From a virus, in IMG/VR virus record IMGVR_UViG_3300002038_000006, positions 23,480 through 87,479 of that record: DNA of 64,000 nt; one strand, given 5' to 3'. Below are positions 31,824 to 61,282 of this stretch, piece after piece. A program made the position numbers and the translations under genes. Position 1 is the stretch's first letter, and each line of letters begins with the position of its first letter. Under the pieces are notes generated by a model. It was not told the DNA's origin. It searched no databases and saw nothing but the letters and a program-made list of their open reading frames with translations.

Positions 31824-32297
31824 TTACCAGCCACCACCACCCTTAGAATTAAGCATATCCCTCACTTCAGTAAGCTTTTCAGGAGTTACATCGCATTGTA
31901 TTCTGAAGTCAGATATCAGCAGGGTAACACTTTCTATGTCGCCCCCACCATTGGATGCTTCCAGTAATACTCTTAACTTATTAAATAAAGATATCAACTC
32001 CTGTCTATTAAGGACATTAATACTATCCATATCGGATGCTCTAAGCGCCCTTATCTTTTTAGTCGACATCCCCAACTTAAGCCCATACGTTTTAACCATC
32101 TCTTTTACTTCACGTAAAGAAGCCCTGCCGAACCCGGGTAAACGTAAAAGGTCAACTTCAGTTGACAGGAGCACATCTTCAAGAGTAACTAATTTCCCGA
32201 AAAGGCAACTATTGCTTACCTTAGTAGACAATAAGTCTTCCAACTTTGTTGCAACAGTTACTTCTTTAGGTAACGATACTTTATATATTTTCTGCAT
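31824..32297 (-). CDS. Stand-alone RNAP alpha-CTD-like domain protein
   Basis: STEVDLLRLPGFGRASLREVKEMVKTYGLKLGM aligns ungapped to alpha-CTD [33 protein letters not shown]. Confidence 0.8.
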   Translation of the reverse strand: MQKIYKVSLPKEVTVATKLEDLLSTKVSNSCLFGKLVTLEDVLLSTEVDLLRLPGFGRASLREVKEMVKTYGLKLGMSTKKIRALRASDMDSINVLNRQELISLFNKLRVLLEASNGGGDIESVTLLISDFRIQCDVTPEKLTEVRDMLNSKGGGGW

Positions 32298-32728: not shown

Positions 32729-33691
32729 TTAAATTACCAGTAGTTGACCTACCTTGATTAGATGAGGTTCAGCTAGACCGTTCTTCTTAGCCAGTTCCTG
32801 CATAGGCATTTCCAATCGGCGTGCTATTGAATATAACGTATCACCATTGGTAACAAGATACATGTTACTACCTACGTGTAAGAACTTACCATATTTAAGG
32901 TTGGTGGTATATTTACCCTCACCCAGCTTAGTAATCTTAAGTCCGTTGACAGACATGAATATCTTAGGATGCATATCGTGTTTAGCAGCGATACCTTTAA
33001 TAGTATCTCCCGGCTGTACGTAATACTTGGTTCCCTCATAGAATCCCATAATGTCTGCAACATATTCTCTAGTCTCACGGAAGTTAGGAGGAAGGTAACC
33101 GTTACCAACCTTTCGTATCCTTGCAGGACCAGCATTGTAAGCAGCTAATGAAATCTTTAATGTGTACTCTGTGAATTCACTCAAAGGAGTATTAAAGAAA
33201 CGACGATGTAAATGGTCTAGATATCTAGCAGCCGCATCAGCAGACTCGTAGTTATCCATGACGTTCATAACACCTAACATAGCAGCTGTACGGTCACGTA
33301 TTTGAAACATACCCTTAGCGCCCACTACAGACTCTTGTGTATTGTCCTGATGAGATTCCTTAAGACTCATCCCTTGTAATATCTTTCCCGGTAAACCATG
33401 CGGGAATCCAATAACATCTAATTCTTCTAACGTAGGTATGTCGTTAGGGTATCGATTAAATGTCCTTGCCGTTATAGGTAATATCTCCACTACCTCAGGC
33501 TCTATAACTTCCACCACTTCTACTTCTTCCTCTACTACAGGAACAGGTACAGGCAGTGGTGCTGGTAACTCAGTAGGTGTTACTTTAACAGTTTCTGATT
33601 TGTGGAAATAATCAAAAACCATCCATGTCGTCATAATTACGATTATCATGGTAGTAACAAATGAGTACCTTGTTAAGTTCTTCTTTAGCAT
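32729..33691 (-). CDS. Membrane-anchored lytic transglycosylase (SLT) with two LysM domains
   Basis: N-terminal TM, P/E/V linker, catalytic LKES, GAKGMFQI, AAYNAGP, ETREYV; LysM YYVQPGDTIKGIA and YLVTNGDTLYSIA. Confidence 0.9.
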   Translation of the reverse strand: MLKKNLTRYSFVTTMIIVIMTTWMVFDYFHKSETVKVTPTELPAPLPVPVPVVEEEVEVVEVIEPEVVEILPITARTFNRYPNDIPTLEELDVIGFPHGLPGKILQGMSLKESHQDNTQESVVGAKGMFQIRDRTAAMLGVMNVMDNYESADAAARYLDHLHRRFFNTPLSEFTEYTLKISLAAYNAGPARIRKVGNGYLPPNFRETREYVADIMGFYEGTKYYVQPGDTIKGIAAKHDMHPKIFMSVNGLKITKLGEGKYTTNLKYGKFLHVGSNMYLVTNGDTLYSIARRLEMPMQELAKKNGLAEPHLIKVGQLLVI

Positions 33692-34862: not shown

Positions 34863-35558
34863 TTAACGATAGAAGCCACGAATCTTCTGTTCAACATCAG
34901 CACCAAAGTCTTTGGCGAATGTTTCAAAAGAAATAGCTTTCAATGCAGCTGCACGACCTTCAGGGTCAGCAGTAGAAGACATCAATACTAAGATGTTTTC
35001 AAAGCGAGCACGTGACGCAGCAGCAATACGCATTTCGGTGAAACCACGGAAGAGTAGGTTGTCAGCGAATGTGGTTTTGTACTCAGTCATGATTTCCAAA
35101 GCTTCGTTATAAGCTTTATGGAACTCAGCACCTTCAAGGTTGTTGATGATAGCTGTAACTGCTTGGTACAATTCCATCTGCTTACGTAAGATAGCCATTT
35201 TATCGTTAGGCTTGTTTGGAGCCATAGCTATAGCGTACGCTAAGATAGTTTGACAGTTAGGGTTAAGTTCGCCTTCAACTTCAGGCTCTTCTTCATCTTT
35301 CTTGCCAGCACCCGGCTGTTCAACTATAATTTGATTGGCAACGTTGTCACCGGCGTTAGCATCTTCTTCAGATACTTTAGGACCTTCGTTACTACCAGAA
35401 CCTTCAGAACCAGTTTCTACTTTAGGAGCAACCTGCTCTTTGTTAGTTTCAACTGTCTGTTGGTCATCTTCAACTTTAGTATTTTCAGGCTTAGGGTTTT
35501 GTTCTTTTTGCTTGTCTTGCGTATTAGCAGACTGATTACCTTGGTTCTTTTTAGACAT
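34863..35558 (-). CDS. Hypothetical protein with disordered acidic N-terminus
   Basis: GGAG RBS before ATG 35558; Q/E/K-rich N-half, FRGF motif in C-half. Confidence 0.6.
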   Translation of the reverse strand: MSKKNQGNQSANTQDKQKEQNPKPENTKVEDDQQTVETNKEQVAPKVETGSEGSGSNEGPKVSEEDANAGDNVANQIIVEQPGAGKKDEEEPEVEGELNPNCQTILAYAIAMAPNKPNDKMAILRKQMELYQAVTAIINNLEGAEFHKAYNEALEIMTEYKTTFADNLLFRGFTEMRIAAASRARFENILVLMSSTADPEGRAAALKAISFETFAKDFGADVEQKIRGFYR

Positions 35559-35572
35559 TACCGTCTCCAAAA

Positions 35573-36019
35573 TTAGTTTTCATTCTCTAGGTTATCCACA
35601 ACCTCACCTAAGGCTGCGCTCTTTTCTTTAGCCACTTCAAGACCAGCAGTTAAAATCATCTCTGCTATATCTCTAGGTAAGTCCAAGAACTCAGTTACGG
35701 ATAGTCCAAATGTTTTAGCGATATTACGCTTACCAAACTTACGAATGGCATCATACAGTAAGCTGTCACTACCAGTAGATTCAGCGGGATGCATCTTGAC
35801 ATAATCTAGCCCAGATACTCCCTCCTTATCATAGTCAGCGATACCATATGCTGTATCGTAAGCCTCTACTTGCAAAGTCTTTGCGAGCAAAGTGCTGATA
35901 CCATCTTGGCTTTCGAACAGGAGTGCCAATTCTTTACCATATTCAACACCCTGCTCTAGACCAAAACGAACATCTATTACAGAGGACGGTCTACCGTCGA
36001 CTGAATTCTTTGCCCGCAT
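35573..36019 (-). CDS. Conserved hypothetical protein, possibly -1 frameshift extension of upstream gene
   Basis: EAYDTAYGI, MHPAE, FGLSVTEFLDLP; no RBS at ATG; preceded in-frame by T TTT TTT. Confidence 0.6.
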   Translation of the reverse strand: MRAKNSVDGRPSSVIDVRFGLEQGVEYGKELALLFESQDGISTLLAKTLQVEAYDTAYGIADYDKEGVSGLDYVKMHPAESTGSDSLLYDAIRKFGKRNIAKTFGLSVTEFLDLPRDIAEMILTAGLEVAKEKSAALGEVVDNLENEN

Positions 36020-37437
36020 AGGGTAAAAAAAGTTGTGGTCATGTCCAGAGGGATAAACTCAGGAACTTTATCGCCACGTACGATTTCACCCGGTACGCCT
36101 TTTTCTTCAGATTCTTTAATACTATCACCGTAGCGTAAACCACAGCTAGGACAATCGGTATTAGGATAACCAATGATTGCGATAGTAGAAGATTCGATGT
36201 ACTCACCAATATTGTTCATGATAGATGTACGGATAATTTCATCGGCTGAAAAATCTGAAAGAATAGAATCGATAGTATCTCTATCTGAAATCAATTCAGG
36301 TTCTTCGTCAGTACCAATGTCCAGTGCGCTAATCCAATGAGCAAACTGACGTAGTGTCGCAAGACGACCTTGGTCAGTAATATACTGGTCACGTTCGCCA
36401 CCTTTAAGTGGAACACGGAATGCTTGGTCAACCATGTTAACTGTAGAGTCAACCCAGTTAAAACCGACCTGTTCATATTCCGCTATAGATGGAACCGCAA
36501 GCGACATCTTCATGCCTTCAGCACCGTCTATGGTAACTGACTTAGTATTGAAACTAAAGCCAGCCTGATACTTTTCTAAATCTTCAGCAGAGTGAGTTGC
36601 ATTGCGTTTAGACATATGCTTCATTTGCTCTTCTGATAACTTAGAAGTATCCACTACACGCAATCGTGCAATGTTCACAGTACCTTCAGAGATATGATTA
36701 CACTTAGTGATTTGTGCTACACAAGGTTCACGAAGTTCATACCCGTCAGGATACATGGTACAGACCATACCCCAGATTAAACTAGGTAAGTCAGTACACA
36801 AAATGATTTTCTTTAACTCTTCAGCATTCTTCGTACCAAAAGAGGTATCGTAGATGTGCGCTAAGATAAAGTTAACTAAATAACTCTGGATGTAAATACT
36901 AGTGTTAGAGAAAGCCATGCCGTTAGTAATACGACCAAGAGTAATCTTCTCTTGACCAATACGACGGTTCAATTCAAGGATAGCTGCGTTGCTTGGAGCC
37001 TTGATAGTTACATAGCCACCAGTATGCCACAACGGCACAGGTACAATGGAACCTAACCCCATACGAGCCTTAACTTTCATTACCGCTGCTTCGCCAGAAG
37101 TAATACCACCTGAATCCTTAGGCTTGAGACGAGAAACCGTAATAGGCTTATCTTCAAACGTAGGACGGTTAGTCCATTCAGATTCATCGTCGGCAAGTCT
37201 TCCTTGGAATAACTTACCAGACATTAAGTGTTCTACGCCTTGAGCAATCGTGGCTAACCACAACGCACTCTCAGCGGGAGCACCTGTTTGCAAGTTAGGT
37301 AACTTGCGTACGTCAGCTTCGATTGTTTCTTCATTAGCACCGAGAAGAACTAAGGCTTCCGCAATGGAAACCTCTTTATCGCTTTTCTCAGTACGTAAAG
37401 ATTTAATCGGAGCTTTTGAGTCAATGGTTAACGACAT
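35977..37437 (-). CDS. Conserved phiKZ-like protein with Cys motifs; possible T4 gp26/gp51-like assembly chaperone
   Basis: VPLWHTG, DLPSLIWGMVCTMYPDGY..PC....CNH, CPSCG; T4 similarity is a weak impression. Confidence 0.5.
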   Translation of the reverse strand: MSLTIDSKAPIKSLRTEKSDKEVSIAEALVLLGANEETIEADVRKLPNLQTGAPAESALWLATIAQGVEHLMSGKLFQGRLADDESEWTNRPTFEDKPITVSRLKPKDSGGITSGEAAVMKVKARMGLGSIVPVPLWHTGGYVTIKAPSNAAILELNRRIGQEKITLGRITNGMAFSNTSIYIQSYLVNFILAHIYDTSFGTKNAEELKKIILCTDLPSLIWGMVCTMYPDGYELREPCVAQITKCNHISEGTVNIARLRVVDTSKLSEEQMKHMSKRNATHSAEDLEKYQAGFSFNTKSVTIDGAEGMKMSLAVPSIAEYEQVGFNWVDSTVNMVDQAFRVPLKGGERDQYITDQGRLATLRQFAHWISALDIGTDEEPELISDRDTIDSILSDFSADEIIRTSIMNNIGEYIESSTIAIIGYPNTDCPSCGLRYGDSIKESEEKGVPGEIVRGDKVPEFIPLDMTTTFFTLCGQRIQSTVDRPL

Positions 37438-37439
37438 CT

Positions 37440-37889
37440 TTACTCCTCGATGTTACCAGCACATAGTTCTGTGATTTGTTCCAATGTTGGACCAGTCACG
37501 TTTACAAAACGGTCTTGCCATTGCTGATAGCGAGATGCAACATTAACCGTTATGTTCATTACGTCAATATCATCGGTCTTTTTAGTAATGCCGTTGATTT
37601 CAGCAGTACATTCTTTATCGATGTTATTAAGTTCAATTTGGAGAGCGTTAAGGTCACGCGCTAAAGTGTTGGCTAACTTACCAACAGCTTCTTCGTCTAA
37701 AGTAACCTCAGGACTTTCGTGAGCAGCTTTAATTAGTTCTTTTACGTTAGCTGTACTTCGGATTAAACCAATGCATGTCATTTTAACATCATTAGCTTCT
37801 TTGATGAAAGTGTCGCGCTTTGACGGTTGGACAGGTGCTCTACCTGCTACTACTTTACCGTTTTTGCGTCTGTTGCTAGATTCGGGCAT
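37440..37889 (-). CDS. Hypothetical helical protein
   Basis: 149 aa, GGAG RBS. Confidence 0.6.
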   Translation of the reverse strand: MPESSNRRKNGKVVAGRAPVQPSKRDTFIKEANDVKMTCIGLIRSTANVKELIKAAHESPEVTLDEEAVGKLANTLARDLNALQIELNNIDKECTAEINGITKKTDDIDVMNITVNVASRYQQWQDRFVNVTGPTLEQITELCAGNIEE

Positions 37890-40618: not shown

Positions 40619-41353
40619 CTAATGTTCATCTAAGGAAGTCATAGCTTCATCGTACCTATGCTTAGGCATGACTCTATATTTACCAACCAAGTCATCGGAC
40701 TCTCTAAATAGATGTTCCGCCAGTTCTTCTCTAGTAATAGGGAACTCAGTTCCCCGCATCGATAGCACATGGGGTATGTCTAGATATATCTGAGCATTTC
40801 CAGTGTACGTATCAATTAGTACTGGTTCTATATTGAGACGTCTTTGAACATTTATTCTATCTACCATATACATATCTGGTTTACGATTAATATCGAATAC
40901 GCAAATCATGCTAGGGTAGGTGGAACTATCCTTACGTTCTACACCGTGTGTGGTAAATGTTAATCTACCGTGTATAAATCTAATCTGTCCTTTAACTAGG
41001 TCACTTATGAAAATCTTGGTTGAAGTATCCACTGGTATAAACAATACTACCACCGCACCCTTCCTAGATTCCTCCCATGCCTTCTTAATGAACTTACGTT
41101 TTATACTAGTACCGTTAGGTGGAGCACAAAAGACAACCTCATTGCTCCAGTCTTTAGTAAGTGCATCATCTTCCATAGTGTAGTACTTCTTACACTTAGC
41201 GTTATCGTCACTAGCCGCAGCATCTAGAGTAAAGCCAAACTCACTATCTAGTTGGTTATACATCCCGTCCAGAGTCCCGTTACTATCCGGGGTACTTGGA
41301 TTAAGGTAAGTCTTACCAGCCAAGTTGTTAATTATTCTATCCTTCAGCGCCAC
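40619..41353 (-). CDS. Phage Dam-family N6-adenine methyltransferase-like protein, catalytic motif degenerate
   Basis: FGFTLDAAASDDNAKC, DALTKDW, VVLFIPVDTST, IRFIHGRLTF; FCAPPNG instead of WCNPPY. Confidence 0.75.
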   Translation of the reverse strand: MALKDRIINNLAGKTYLNPSTPDSNGTLDGMYNQLDSEFGFTLDAAASDDNAKCKKYYTMEDDALTKDWSNEVVFCAPPNGTSIKRKFIKKAWEESRKGAVVVLFIPVDTSTKIFISDLVKGQIRFIHGRLTFTTHGVERKDSSTYPSMICVFDINRKPDMYMVDRINVQRRLNIEPVLIDTYTGNAQIYLDIPHVLSMRGTEFPITREELAEHLFRESDDLVGKYRVMPKHRYDEAMTSLDEH

Positions 41354-58782: not shown

Positions 58783-59334
58783 CTACATTTCCTCAAAATC
58801 ATCTTCGCCTAACTCCATCTCAGGTTTAGCAGGCTCTAAATCAGTTTTTGGTTCGAGTCCAGCTATTAATGGATAGCCGTAATACTTAAGTATCTCATTC
58901 CACTGACGAACCTCTTCTACACTAACGCCTTCTTTAACAACCTTACCGCCAAGATTATCAACTAAGAACTTAACGCCCAAACTTGGATGTCTGTCTTGAT
59001 GTTGTCTAGCTTCGTTGCTTATCGTACCCGCGCTGTTACGTGGGTCGGCATTAATGAGAGTAGGGTGACGTTTGATTAATGGTGGTACTACGAATAGTAC
59101 ACGTTTATCTTTAACTACGTTTACTGACTCATACGCACTGCCCGCTACATCTAACCACGGGGATAAGTCTACATCTTTCTCGGTAGATACGAACATAGGT
59201 AAGTATTTACGACGGAATTCTGTTTCAGGTATTGCCCTGACAATATCATCTGTCATTTCACCAATAGATACCATTGCATCTACTAGGTCTTGTGGCATTG
59301 TGATGTCATTTACTTCATATTCTTTATCCGACAT
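58783..59334 (-). CDS. Conserved hypothetical protein
   Basis: IPETEFRRKYLPMF, W..VAGS, LFVVPPL, W..IL.YYG. Confidence 0.6.
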   Translation of the reverse strand: MSDKEYEVNDITMPQDLVDAMVSIGEMTDDIVRAIPETEFRRKYLPMFVSTEKDVDLSPWLDVAGSAYESVNVVKDKRVLFVVPPLIKRHPTLINADPRNSAGTISNEARQHQDRHPSLGVKFLVDNLGGKVVKEGVSVEEVRQWNEILKYYGYPLIAGLEPKTDLEPAKPEMELGEDDFEEM

Positions 59335-59740
59335 TTAACAACTCCCCGTTATTTAATTGGTTAACAACGCGTTGAATGGTGGAATTACGAACCGCTAATA
59401 GATATTGTAAATCAGCAGTCTTACCATCGTTAGTAATGATACCAGTAACAACTATCTCCAACTGTGCACCATCTTCTTTAATGGTTACATCGATATCAAC
59501 CGTATCGAATTGTTTCTTGAGATATTCATCAAGAACTTTCTGCATTACCGATTGTAGTTCAACTAGACTATTACTGTACTTAGAAATAATCCATTGAATA
59601 CTAGTGACCTTACCAGCAAATGTAACCGACTGGGAATTATCGCTAGTAAAGGCATACGACATAATAGCATCCAATCGCTCAGCCGTATCTTCATTATGCA
59701 ACCAACCTTTAGCTGCTAACTTAGGTACTGTACGTGCCAT
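59324..59740 (-). CDS. Conserved protein, possibly T4 gp25-like baseplate/sheath initiator
   Basis: VPKL...GW, SDNSQS..F.G.VTS; GGAG RBS before ATG 59740; gp25 similarity tentative. Confidence 0.5.
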   Translation of the reverse strand: MARTVPKLAAKGWLHNEDTAERLDAIMSYAFTSDNSQSVTFAGKVTSIQWIISKYSNSLVELQSVMQKVLDEYLKKQFDTVDIDVTIKEDGAQLEIVVTGIITNDGKTADLQYLLAVRNSTIQRVVNQLNNGELLNVG

Positions 59741-59794
59741 TTTTTGAAACTCCATTACAAAAAAGAAAGGATGGTTAATCCCCTCTTCTATTTT

Positions 59795-60403
59795 TTACAG
59801 CCTATCGTTTAAACGAGAAGTAGTATCTTCTCTACGACGCTTCATCAACGTACGTTGAGTCTGCCATGCTGATTCAATATCGACCTGTTGTACAAATGTC
59901 AATTCGTCTTCTTCATTTACATGAGATTCAAAATAACTTGTACATTCACCATTACCTTCATCGTCTTCGATGTAGATACCGTCAGTAACTCTACGGTAGT
60001 CATAATGGTCTTCGGCAATACGTGTAGGTTCCCAATCTTCATATGTTTCAGAGTAACCGTCACATAATTGGTCATTACGCATTTTACGAACTACTGGGTC
60101 AGCCATAAGCCAACGCTGCATAGTAATCTGCGCTTGCTGTAAACCGCCTAACGTTCCTATAGACTTAATATCATCGGTATCCCACATATGTCGGAACTTA
60201 CGAGCTAAGGCTTCGGTACGTCGGAATGCTTCATCACTTGTGGCACGTTCAACCATCTCGCGTTTATCTTCGAGAAAGCTACGTCCCATTTCGGTTAGAT
60301 TTTCCCAACCCTGAGAGAACTGCTGCTTTACATAATCAACAGTTCCTTGATGAGGCATACCATAGACAGCAGCGTCGAATACATCCAAACTTTCTATTTC
60401 CAC
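59795..60403 (-). CDS. Conserved phiKZ-like core hypothetical protein
   Basis: MQRWLMADP..R, CDGYSETY, HYDYRRVTDG. Confidence 0.65.
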   Translation of the reverse strand: MEIESLDVFDAAVYGMPHQGTVDYVKQQFSQGWENLTEMGRSFLEDKREMVERATSDEAFRRTEALARKFRHMWDTDDIKSIGTLGGLQQAQITMQRWLMADPVVRKMRNDQLCDGYSETYEDWEPTRIAEDHYDYRRVTDGIYIEDDEGNGECTSYFESHVNEEDELTFVQQVDIESAWQTQRTLMKRRREDTTSRLNDRL

Positions 60404-61282
60404 CTATATGTCCCCTTTTATTAAACTCCTGACGTACTTAGAATTATCGTCGGTGAGGGGTAAGATAACACAATCGTGATATAGTTTCTTACTGCCCGTC
60501 TTAATTCTCCTAGCTATGCCAGATAGATGTAAACCAGTTAATCTTGAAGTTTCACGTATAGAAGAATATAAAGTAATTTCTTTAGTGACCGTATTACCTA
60601 CGATTACCTCTGTATATTTACTCATATCACCGCTATATAAAACTTCCTCTATAGTCATACCAGACTTTATTCGTTTGCATATGGTATCTGGAGTAACTCC
60701 AATCTCTCTACTCCATTCACATATGGTTAATTTTCTACCATCGTGTTCGAGTATGGTATTGTTGTTTTTGTTATTGGCCTGCTCTATGTGAGTAGCCCAA
60801 CGACAATTAGATGGTTCATAATTACCATCGTTGTCAATCCTATCCATAGTGCACCCGTCAGGTCTTTCCCCCATATCGAGTACAAAATCTTCAAAGGAAT
60901 TAACCCAACGTTCACAAACCTTTATACCCCTACCGCCATAGTCAGGGTAATTGTTAGCCTTAGGGTTGTAACATCTAGTAACCATACCTTTATATGTTGG
61001 ATATAATGGGTGTTTACTTCTACCGTGTCGTGTAACCAACTCCAAGTTATAACACCCACAAGATACAATTTTACCGTAACGTAGATTATCGCCCAATACC
61101 GATTTTAAAGTACCGCAGGAACATCTACAAAGCCAGTACGGTCTTTTCCTATCTCCAAACCTACCGGCGAAACATACGACCGCATACCTACCGTACGTTT
61201 CCCCAGTTATATCTATAAGGGAACTAGGTAAGGTAGCGTCTGGTAAATATAACTCGGGATTCTCGAGCGTATCTATTTCCAT
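60404..61282 (-). mobile_element. Free-standing HNH homing endonuclease with N-terminal Cys domain
   Basis: WLCRCSCG...SCGC, DYGGRGIKVCERW, MDRIDNDGNYEPSNCRWAT, C-terminal HTH. Confidence 0.88.

What the first reader, a model, noticed from the sequence alone, without database searches (positions are those of the whole stretch)
35573..37437. Candidate programmed -1 ribosomal frameshift joining two conserved genes (G/GT chaperone-like)
Seen: near the end of the 486-aa ORF the mRNA reads ACT TTT TTT ACC, a T-TTT-TTT heptamer at 36025-36031. The -1 frame continues TAC CCT ATG CGG straight into the 148-aa ORF, whose ATG lacks an RBS. A GACGG-TAGA-CCGTC hairpin lies about 25 nt downstream. Known: tailed phages use -1 frameshifts in tail-assembly chaperones (lambda G/GT), and T4 gp26/gp51 are paired hub-assembly factors. 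Inference: a short and a long (about 620-aa) isoform of a jumbo-phage assembly chaperone; I know of no description of this in Chimalliviridae.
Basis: partly seen in the sequence, partly recalled or inferred. Interest (0 to 1): 0.68.

Follow-up and report, generated by a model that had tools for sequence, protein, structure and literature searches.

The report
Jumbo-phage tail chaperone frameshift
A run of seven T's near the end of a core gene of phiKZ-like giant phages very probably makes some ribosomes slip back one base, so one gene yields a short and a long protein that look like the tail-building chaperone pair of other tailed phages, a pair not so far identified in this family in any record or paper I could search.

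Summary
Observation confirmed. The 486-aa ORF is the orthologue of phiKZ gp77 (Chimalliviridae core gene cg18, 'hypothetical'). In 193 of 193 scorable loci the downstream ORF lies in the -1 frame and overlaps it. In 120 representatives (<70% identity) the first Phe codon of the site is always TTT (other conserved Phe columns 30% and 49%), preceded by T (111) or G (9). The window's ATG is not conserved, and a conserved motif of the second ORF usually has no ATG upstream. A programmed -1 shift giving 486- and 621-aa products is about 95% likely (ribosomal 85%, transcriptional 10%). The hairpin is not conserved. The predicted protein has two domains whose only whole-domain PDB matches are tail assembly chaperones (weak scores), resembles T4 gp26-type proteins, and its SPN3US orthologues are absent from virions: chaperone role about 75%. 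Unlike lambda G/GT it lies about 100 kb from the tape-measure gene, so it works like G/GT but is not filed as a member. No expression data were available. The scan reported the same frameshift on three other genomes; one denied the chaperone reading, which my fold results contradict.

The parts
35977..37437 (-). ORF1, 486 aa (53.6 kDa), zero-frame product; orthologue of phiKZ gp77 / Goslar gp81 / SPN3US gp39; putative short chaperone form (TAC-N-like)
   Evidence: PHROG 4585 E 9e-107
37443..37448 (-). Shine-Dalgarno GAGGAG of ORF1
36730..37104 (-). Domain A (residues 112-236), chaperone-like fold
36175..36609 (-). Domain B (residues 277-421), second chaperone-like fold with a helical insertion
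36142..36153 (-). CPxC motif (429-432), as near the C-terminus of T4 gp26; probable metal-binding knuckle
   Evidence: nearly invariant in alignment A1; T4 gp26
36025..36031 (-). Slippery heptamer U_UUU_UUU (Phe470-Phe471)
35573..36031 (-). -1 frame arm (152 codons from the site); gives a 621-aa, 68.3-kDa long form (TAC-NC-like). The annotated 148-aa ORF (36019-35573) is its 3' part
   Evidence: PHROG 12109 E 5e-17
36020..36024 (-). ACCCT after the site, conserved; best explained by dual coding (Thr-Leu in frame 0, Tyr-Pro in frame -1)
   Evidence: C at the frame-0 wobble position in 99/120; Pro at -1 codon 4 in 99/120
35960..35965 (-). Conserved Phe-Gly motif of the -1 arm, just past the ORF1 stop and upstream of any ATG in most relatives
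35985..35998 (-).
35669..35758 (-). C-terminal conserved block of the -1 arm (…FGLS.EFL.LP…), reminiscent of short TAC-C domains; resemblance not established
   Evidence: consensus; Atlas lead 0.84; hhalign to T4 gp51 negative

Best explanation
One gene, two products. Ribosomes translating the gp77-family gene reach U_UUU_UUY with tRNA-Phe in both P and A sites; most finish in frame 0 about 13-46 codons later (486 aa here), a minority slip back one base and read a further 150-190 codons (621 aa here). Shown: the sequence, its conservation, the lack of an independent start. Inferred: that slippage occurs and is ribosomal. Function, inferred by analogy with lambda G/GT and T4 gp26/gp51: the abundant short form coats the tape-measure protein, the rare long form adds a domain that recruits tail-tube protein, and both leave before the tail is finished. 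Probability split: a programmed -1 product 0.95; ribosomal 0.85; tail-assembly-chaperone role 0.75. The confidence given is for the ribosomal frameshift together with the chaperone role.
For: Frame -1 and overlap in 193/193 loci, 27/27 in a hand-checked set of window, closest relative and 25 isolates from across the family, with 85 different spacing combinations among 120 representatives. First codon TTT 120/120; control Phe columns 30% and 49%, background 38%; in 48 high-GC phages background 17%, site 48/48. Base before the site T 111, G 9, never A or C. -1 frame open 150-194 codons after the site in 120/120 but at most 20 codons upstream in 98/120; the +1 frame has a median of 12. Window ATG shared by only 2/120; close relatives read Leu there; 4 have no ATG at all. 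Conserved FG motif: 82/97 have no ATG and 58/97 no ATG/GTG/TTG upstream in the open frame. Fold; T4-like baseplate-hub models E 5e-6 to 1e-3; 15 of 20 named Atlas hits in clusters carrying PF12322 (top 0.91; 24% of that cluster's members). SPN3US gp39 and gp40 absent from 86 virion proteins while gp37, 38, 41, 42 are present (PMC5694885 Table S1).
Confidence: 0.68

Rival explanations
1. The -1 ribosomal frameshift is real, but the two forms do something other than chaperone the tape-measure protein and tail tube, for example assemble the baseplate hub or another virion part, having kept the fold.
For: Not next to the tape-measure gene; sits beside a virion RNA-polymerase subunit and DNA-polymerase gene; the protein is more than twice the length of T4 gp26; structural scores weak; T4 gp26/gp51 were long annotated as hub-assembly factors.
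Against: All three solved chaperones named in PMC9603447 (2OB9, 3KLU, 3FGX) are recovered as whole-domain matches; the fold, a C-terminal -1 extension and absence from virions coincide; Chimalliviridae virion genes are scattered anyway (SPN3US tape measure is gp239, tube gp255).
Confidence: 0.17
2. The long form arises by transcriptional slippage: the phage RNA polymerase adds one U in the T run, and normal translation of that mRNA enters the -1 frame, giving almost the same protein.
For: The signal is a homopolymer run; 43/120 have 8-9 T; no ribosomal stimulator found; the polymerase is phage-encoded and its slippage threshold unknown.
Against: 77/120 runs are 7 T or shorter, only 1 reaches 9, the length at which bacterial polymerase slips efficiently (PMC5009743); 35/120 have TTC as second codon, which shortens the run but suits tRNA-Phe re-pairing; the run is fixed in codon phase.
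Confidence: 0.1
3. ORF2 is a separate gene with its own start or translational coupling; the T run only reflects a conserved Phe-Phe.
For: The window and two other lineages have an ATG four codons after the site; gene callers annotate ORF2 separately; some internal initiation cannot be excluded.
Against: Amino-acid conservation cannot fix TTT over TTC in 120/120, fix the frame in 193/193, or explain conserved -1 residues upstream of every start codon; annotated starts scatter from codon 4 to beyond 150.
Confidence: 0.04
4. Assembly artefact: a homopolymer indel split one gene.
For: Homopolymer runs are error-prone in some sequencing methods.
Against: The same split occurs in every isolate genome and metagenome examined; no in-frame fusion among 193 loci; the zero-frame tail is itself conserved.
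Confidence: 0.01

Closest known systems
T4-like phage tail assembly chaperones gp26/gp51 (Pfam PF12322; Vladimirov, Gautam and Davidson 2022, pmid 34826709, known to me only through PMC12846349 and PMC10885494 and memory)
   Same: Predicted structure matches T4-like baseplate-hub proteins (E 5e-6 to 1e-3); same order of features: domain, Cys knuckle, domain, CPxC, then Phe-Phe near the C-terminus; poly-T slippery sites are reported in T4-like relatives.
   Different: T4 itself uses two separate genes; gp26 is 208 aa against 480-660 aa here; the C-terminal domain is about 45 aa in gp51 against 150-190 aa here; no significant sequence-profile link; T4 genes lie three genes from tape-measure gene 29.
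Lambda gpG/gpGT and P2 gpE/E+E' tail-chaperone frameshifts (PMC5009743)
   Same: [quoted passage not shown]
   Different: Not upstream of the tape-measure gene; two chaperone-like domains in one chain; lambda slips on G_GGA_AAG (from memory).
Pakpunavirus/Vandenendeviridae chaperone frameshift at GTTTTT (PMC12846349)
   Same: Same class of U-rich site, inferred by the same comparative argument; downstream ORF mis-annotated as a separate hypothetical gene.
   Different: There the locus is directly upstream of the tape-measure gene; different phage family.

Membership tests
Lambda G/GT-type tail assembly chaperone locus | Second ORF overlaps the first in the -1 frame and lacks its own conserved start | tested here: met
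   193/193 loci; starts scattered or absent
Lambda G/GT-type tail assembly chaperone locus | Conserved slippery sequence in the overlap | tested here: met
   [T/G]_TTT_TTN in 119/120 representatives; codon controls
Lambda G/GT-type tail assembly chaperone locus | Short form has the fold of solved chaperones (2OB9, 3KLU, 3FGX) | tested here: inconclusive
Lambda G/GT-type tail assembly chaperone locus | Located immediately upstream of the tape-measure gene | tested here: not met
   Tape-measure-like gene at genome 167654-174074, locus at 59052-60916; SPN3US gp39/40 against gp239
Lambda G/GT-type tail assembly chaperone locus | Both products absent from mature virions | tested here: met
   Published SPN3US virion list lacks gp39 and gp40; one phage only; absence in mass spectrometry is not proof
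Lambda G/GT-type tail assembly chaperone locus | Short form binds tape measure, long form binds tube; both needed for tails; fixed ratio | not testable with these tools
   needs experiments
T4 gp26/gp51 family (PF12322) | Sequence match to the family profile | tested here: not met
   No PF12322 hit in 47 members; PHROG 150 'baseplate hub' in 2 of 47, best E 0.009; hhalign E 0.03-0.45
T4 gp26/gp51 family (PF12322) | Structural similarity to T4-like baseplate-hub/gp26 proteins | tested here: met
   BFVD E 4.9e-6, 9.5e-6, 1.7e-4; TM by target 0.44-0.59, model against model; Atlas features
T4 gp26/gp51 family (PF12322) | C-terminal extension homologous to the gp51 C-terminal domain | tested here: inconclusive
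   hhalign negative with a shallow gp51 alignment; Atlas nearest named clusters are 'tail assembly chaperone GT' 0.84 and Phage_TAC_11 0.80, lead level only
Chimalliviridae core gene cg18 (phiKZ gp77) | Orthology and synteny with gp77-gp80 | tested here: met
   tblastn to 265 phage records; PhiPA3 074 = phiKZ gp077; core table; neighbours match gp79 and the RNAP subunit

The most novel reading that the evidence does not exclude
All nucleus-forming jumbo phages make their tail-assembly chaperone pair from one core gene by a stimulator-free U-run frameshift, from a locus detached from the tail genes, with an enlarged two-domain chaperone; this would name a 'hypothetical' core gene, add an unrecognised core domain (missing from the core list because of inconsistent annotation), and show that the G/GT ratio device survives without linkage to its client genes. 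A lesser part of this probability is that the phage's own RNA polymerase makes the shift.
Probability: 0.65. Interest if true: 0.62.

Novelty: new variant of a known kind. Interest (0 to 1): 0.55.

Why it matters
Chimalliviridae (phiKZ, Goslar, PCH45, SPN3US) are intensively studied, yet gp77/cg18 is listed as hypothetical (PMC10299810) and I found no report of a tail chaperone pair or recoding event in the family. The finding corrects the annotation of hundreds of genomes (the downstream ORF is truncated or, in phiKZ-like SL2, reduced to 45 codons), supplies a testable function for a core gene, and warns that knock-down, tagging and proteomic studies of gp77 deal with two proteins. The mechanism itself is a familiar one, which caps the interest.

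Tried and rejected
Hairpin as stimulator: stem not kept in the closest relatives; folding z-scores 5-55 nt downstream average -0.48 against -0.19 to -0.53 in control windows. A longer stem starting 7 nt after the site folds in this genome (z -2.5) but is not shown to be general. Internal Shine-Dalgarno upstream of the site: only a slight dip at the Leu-Asp codons, fewer than 10 of 120 below -4 kcal/mol. Pfam, PHROG and PDB sequence searches gave no named family. hhalign to T4 gp26 and gp51 and between domains A and B: not significant. Whole-model PDB searches were diluted. The Atlas model of ORF2 is too poor to use (pLDDT 0.44); ORF2 was not folded here. Vladimirov 2022 and the SPN3US infection proteome were not held, so I could not check whether the former already covers phiKZ-like phages. 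Literature searches for this frameshift found nothing; the library lacks most subscription papers. The PCH45 Tn-seq preprint does not name these genes in its text.

Full report
Observation. On the minus strand ORF1 (37437-35977, 486 aa) reads ACT TTT TTT ACC 18 codons before its stop; the seven T's lie at 36031-36025. The -1 frame is open from 36058 to the stop at 35573 and reads Phe-Phe-Tyr-Pro-Met-Arg from the site. ORF1 has a GAGGAG ribosome-binding site; the ATG at 36019 has none. The hairpin is at 35998-35985. In the whole 218-kb genome, 87 slippery heptamers fall in frame inside ORFs and only this one opens a long -1 extension. A slip gives 621 aa (68.3 kDa) beside 486 aa (53.6 kDa).

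Identity. ORF1 matches 265 phage records, with phiKZ-like jumbo phages in every row listed. It is the orthologue of PhiPA3 074, annotated as similar to phiKZ gp077, 201phi2-1 gp136 and EL gp047; ORF2 corresponds to PhiPA3 073 and 201phi2-1 gp135. Prichard et al. list it as core gene cg18, hypothetical (PMC10299810). A few GenBank records call it a putative baseplate hub assembly protein after T4 gp26. None of the records fetched joins the two ORFs.

Frame and site across the family. In the window, its closest viral relative and 25 isolates spanning the family, ORF2 was always in the -1 frame, always overlapped ORF1, and the overlap held the only in-frame TTT-TTN of the gene. An automated pass over 196 loci left 193 scorable, all -1. 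These are related sequences, so I reduced them to 120 at under 70% and 52 at under 40% identity; the pattern held at each level, and 85 different combinations of distances to the two stops show many independent indels that all kept the frame. The first Phe codon is TTT in every case, whereas the two other conserved Phe columns use TTT in 30% and 49% and the background is 38%; in 48 high-GC phages the background is 17% and the site 48/48. The base before it is T in 111 and G in 9, never A or C; the second codon is TTT in 82 and TTC in 35. This is what re-pairing of two tRNA-Phe needs and what protein conservation alone cannot produce. One marine clade keeps only CTT TTT ATT: still in the -1 frame, but compatible only with slippage of one tRNA.

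No independent start. The window's ATG is shared by 2 of 120 representatives; relatives at 62-76% identity have a Leu codon there; first ATGs scatter from codon 4 to 159 and four lineages have none. A Phe-Gly motif conserved in the -1 arm lies past the ORF1 stop in 95 of 97 cases, with no ATG upstream in 82 and no ATG, GTG or TTG in 58. Frame-0 wobble positions just after the site are conserved where they are first positions of -1 codons (Pro, Arg), and the -1 frame closes within 20 codons upstream of the site in 98 of 120. Coding constraint on the -1 frame therefore begins at the T run.

Stimulators. The site probably works largely alone and at modest efficiency, as suits a minor long form (lambda makes G and GT at 30:1; PMC5009743). 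This is inference.

Ribosome or polymerase. An added U in the mRNA would give nearly the same protein. Runs are 5-7 T in 77 of 120 and reach 9 once, against about 9 for efficient slippage by bacterial polymerase, and TTC is freely tolerated in the second codon. I put transcription at 10%, since the phage polymerase is untested.

Comparison and novelty. It works like lambda G/GT and most resembles the T4-type chaperones, but fails the synteny criterion and the PF12322 sequence test, so I call it a variant and do not file it as a member. Ten literature searches found no description in Chimalliviridae; Vladimirov 2022 could not be read and might mention them. The scan noted the same frameshift on three other genomes; those notes are not independent support. 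One concluded that the gene is not a tail chaperone; the domain-level fold results here argue otherwise.

Verdict. Programmed -1 product 0.95; ribosomal 0.85; chaperone role 0.75. New variant of a known kind; interest 0.55.

Noticed in passing
G000:C1:167654-174074 (L198:7655-14075), outside the window: The tape-measure-like gene (PHROG 3201) is split into a 346-codon and an 1808-codon open frame overlapping by about 44 nt in a +1 relation; the profile's first 354 positions are missing from the long part. Probably an assembly indel, possibly a real split or recoding.
   Followed up: partly
L076, L078-L081, L084, L085, L172, L174-L176: A marine clade keeps the -1 overlap with a degenerate site, CTT TTT ATT; a natural test of whether single-tRNA slippage on U_UUU suffices.
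   Followed up: partly
L018:2772-2909 (phiKZ-like phage SL2): ORF2 is annotated as a 45-codon gene although the -1 frame is open for 167 codons from the site; in L030 no gene is called at all.
   Followed up: yes
window 32729-33691 (-): 320-aa ORF that by eye resembles a lytic transglycosylase followed by two LysM-like repeats, with an N-terminal membrane anchor; not searched.
   Followed up: no
window 40619-41353 (-): 244-aa ORF that by eye resembles a phage DNA adenine methyltransferase; unusual for a nucleus-forming phage; not searched.
   Followed up: no
window 31824-32297 (-): 157-aa ORF with a stretch resembling the RNA polymerase alpha C-terminal domain (by eye); not searched.
   Followed up: no
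window 34863-35570 (-): 235-aa gene directly after ORF2 (2-nt gap), acidic low-complexity N-terminus, PHROG 18957 unknown function; kept in this position in close relatives.
   Followed up: no
PDB 5IR0: Vibrio PICI-like element ORF19, of unknown function, aligns over the whole of domain A alongside the known chaperones and may itself have the chaperone fold.
   Followed up: no
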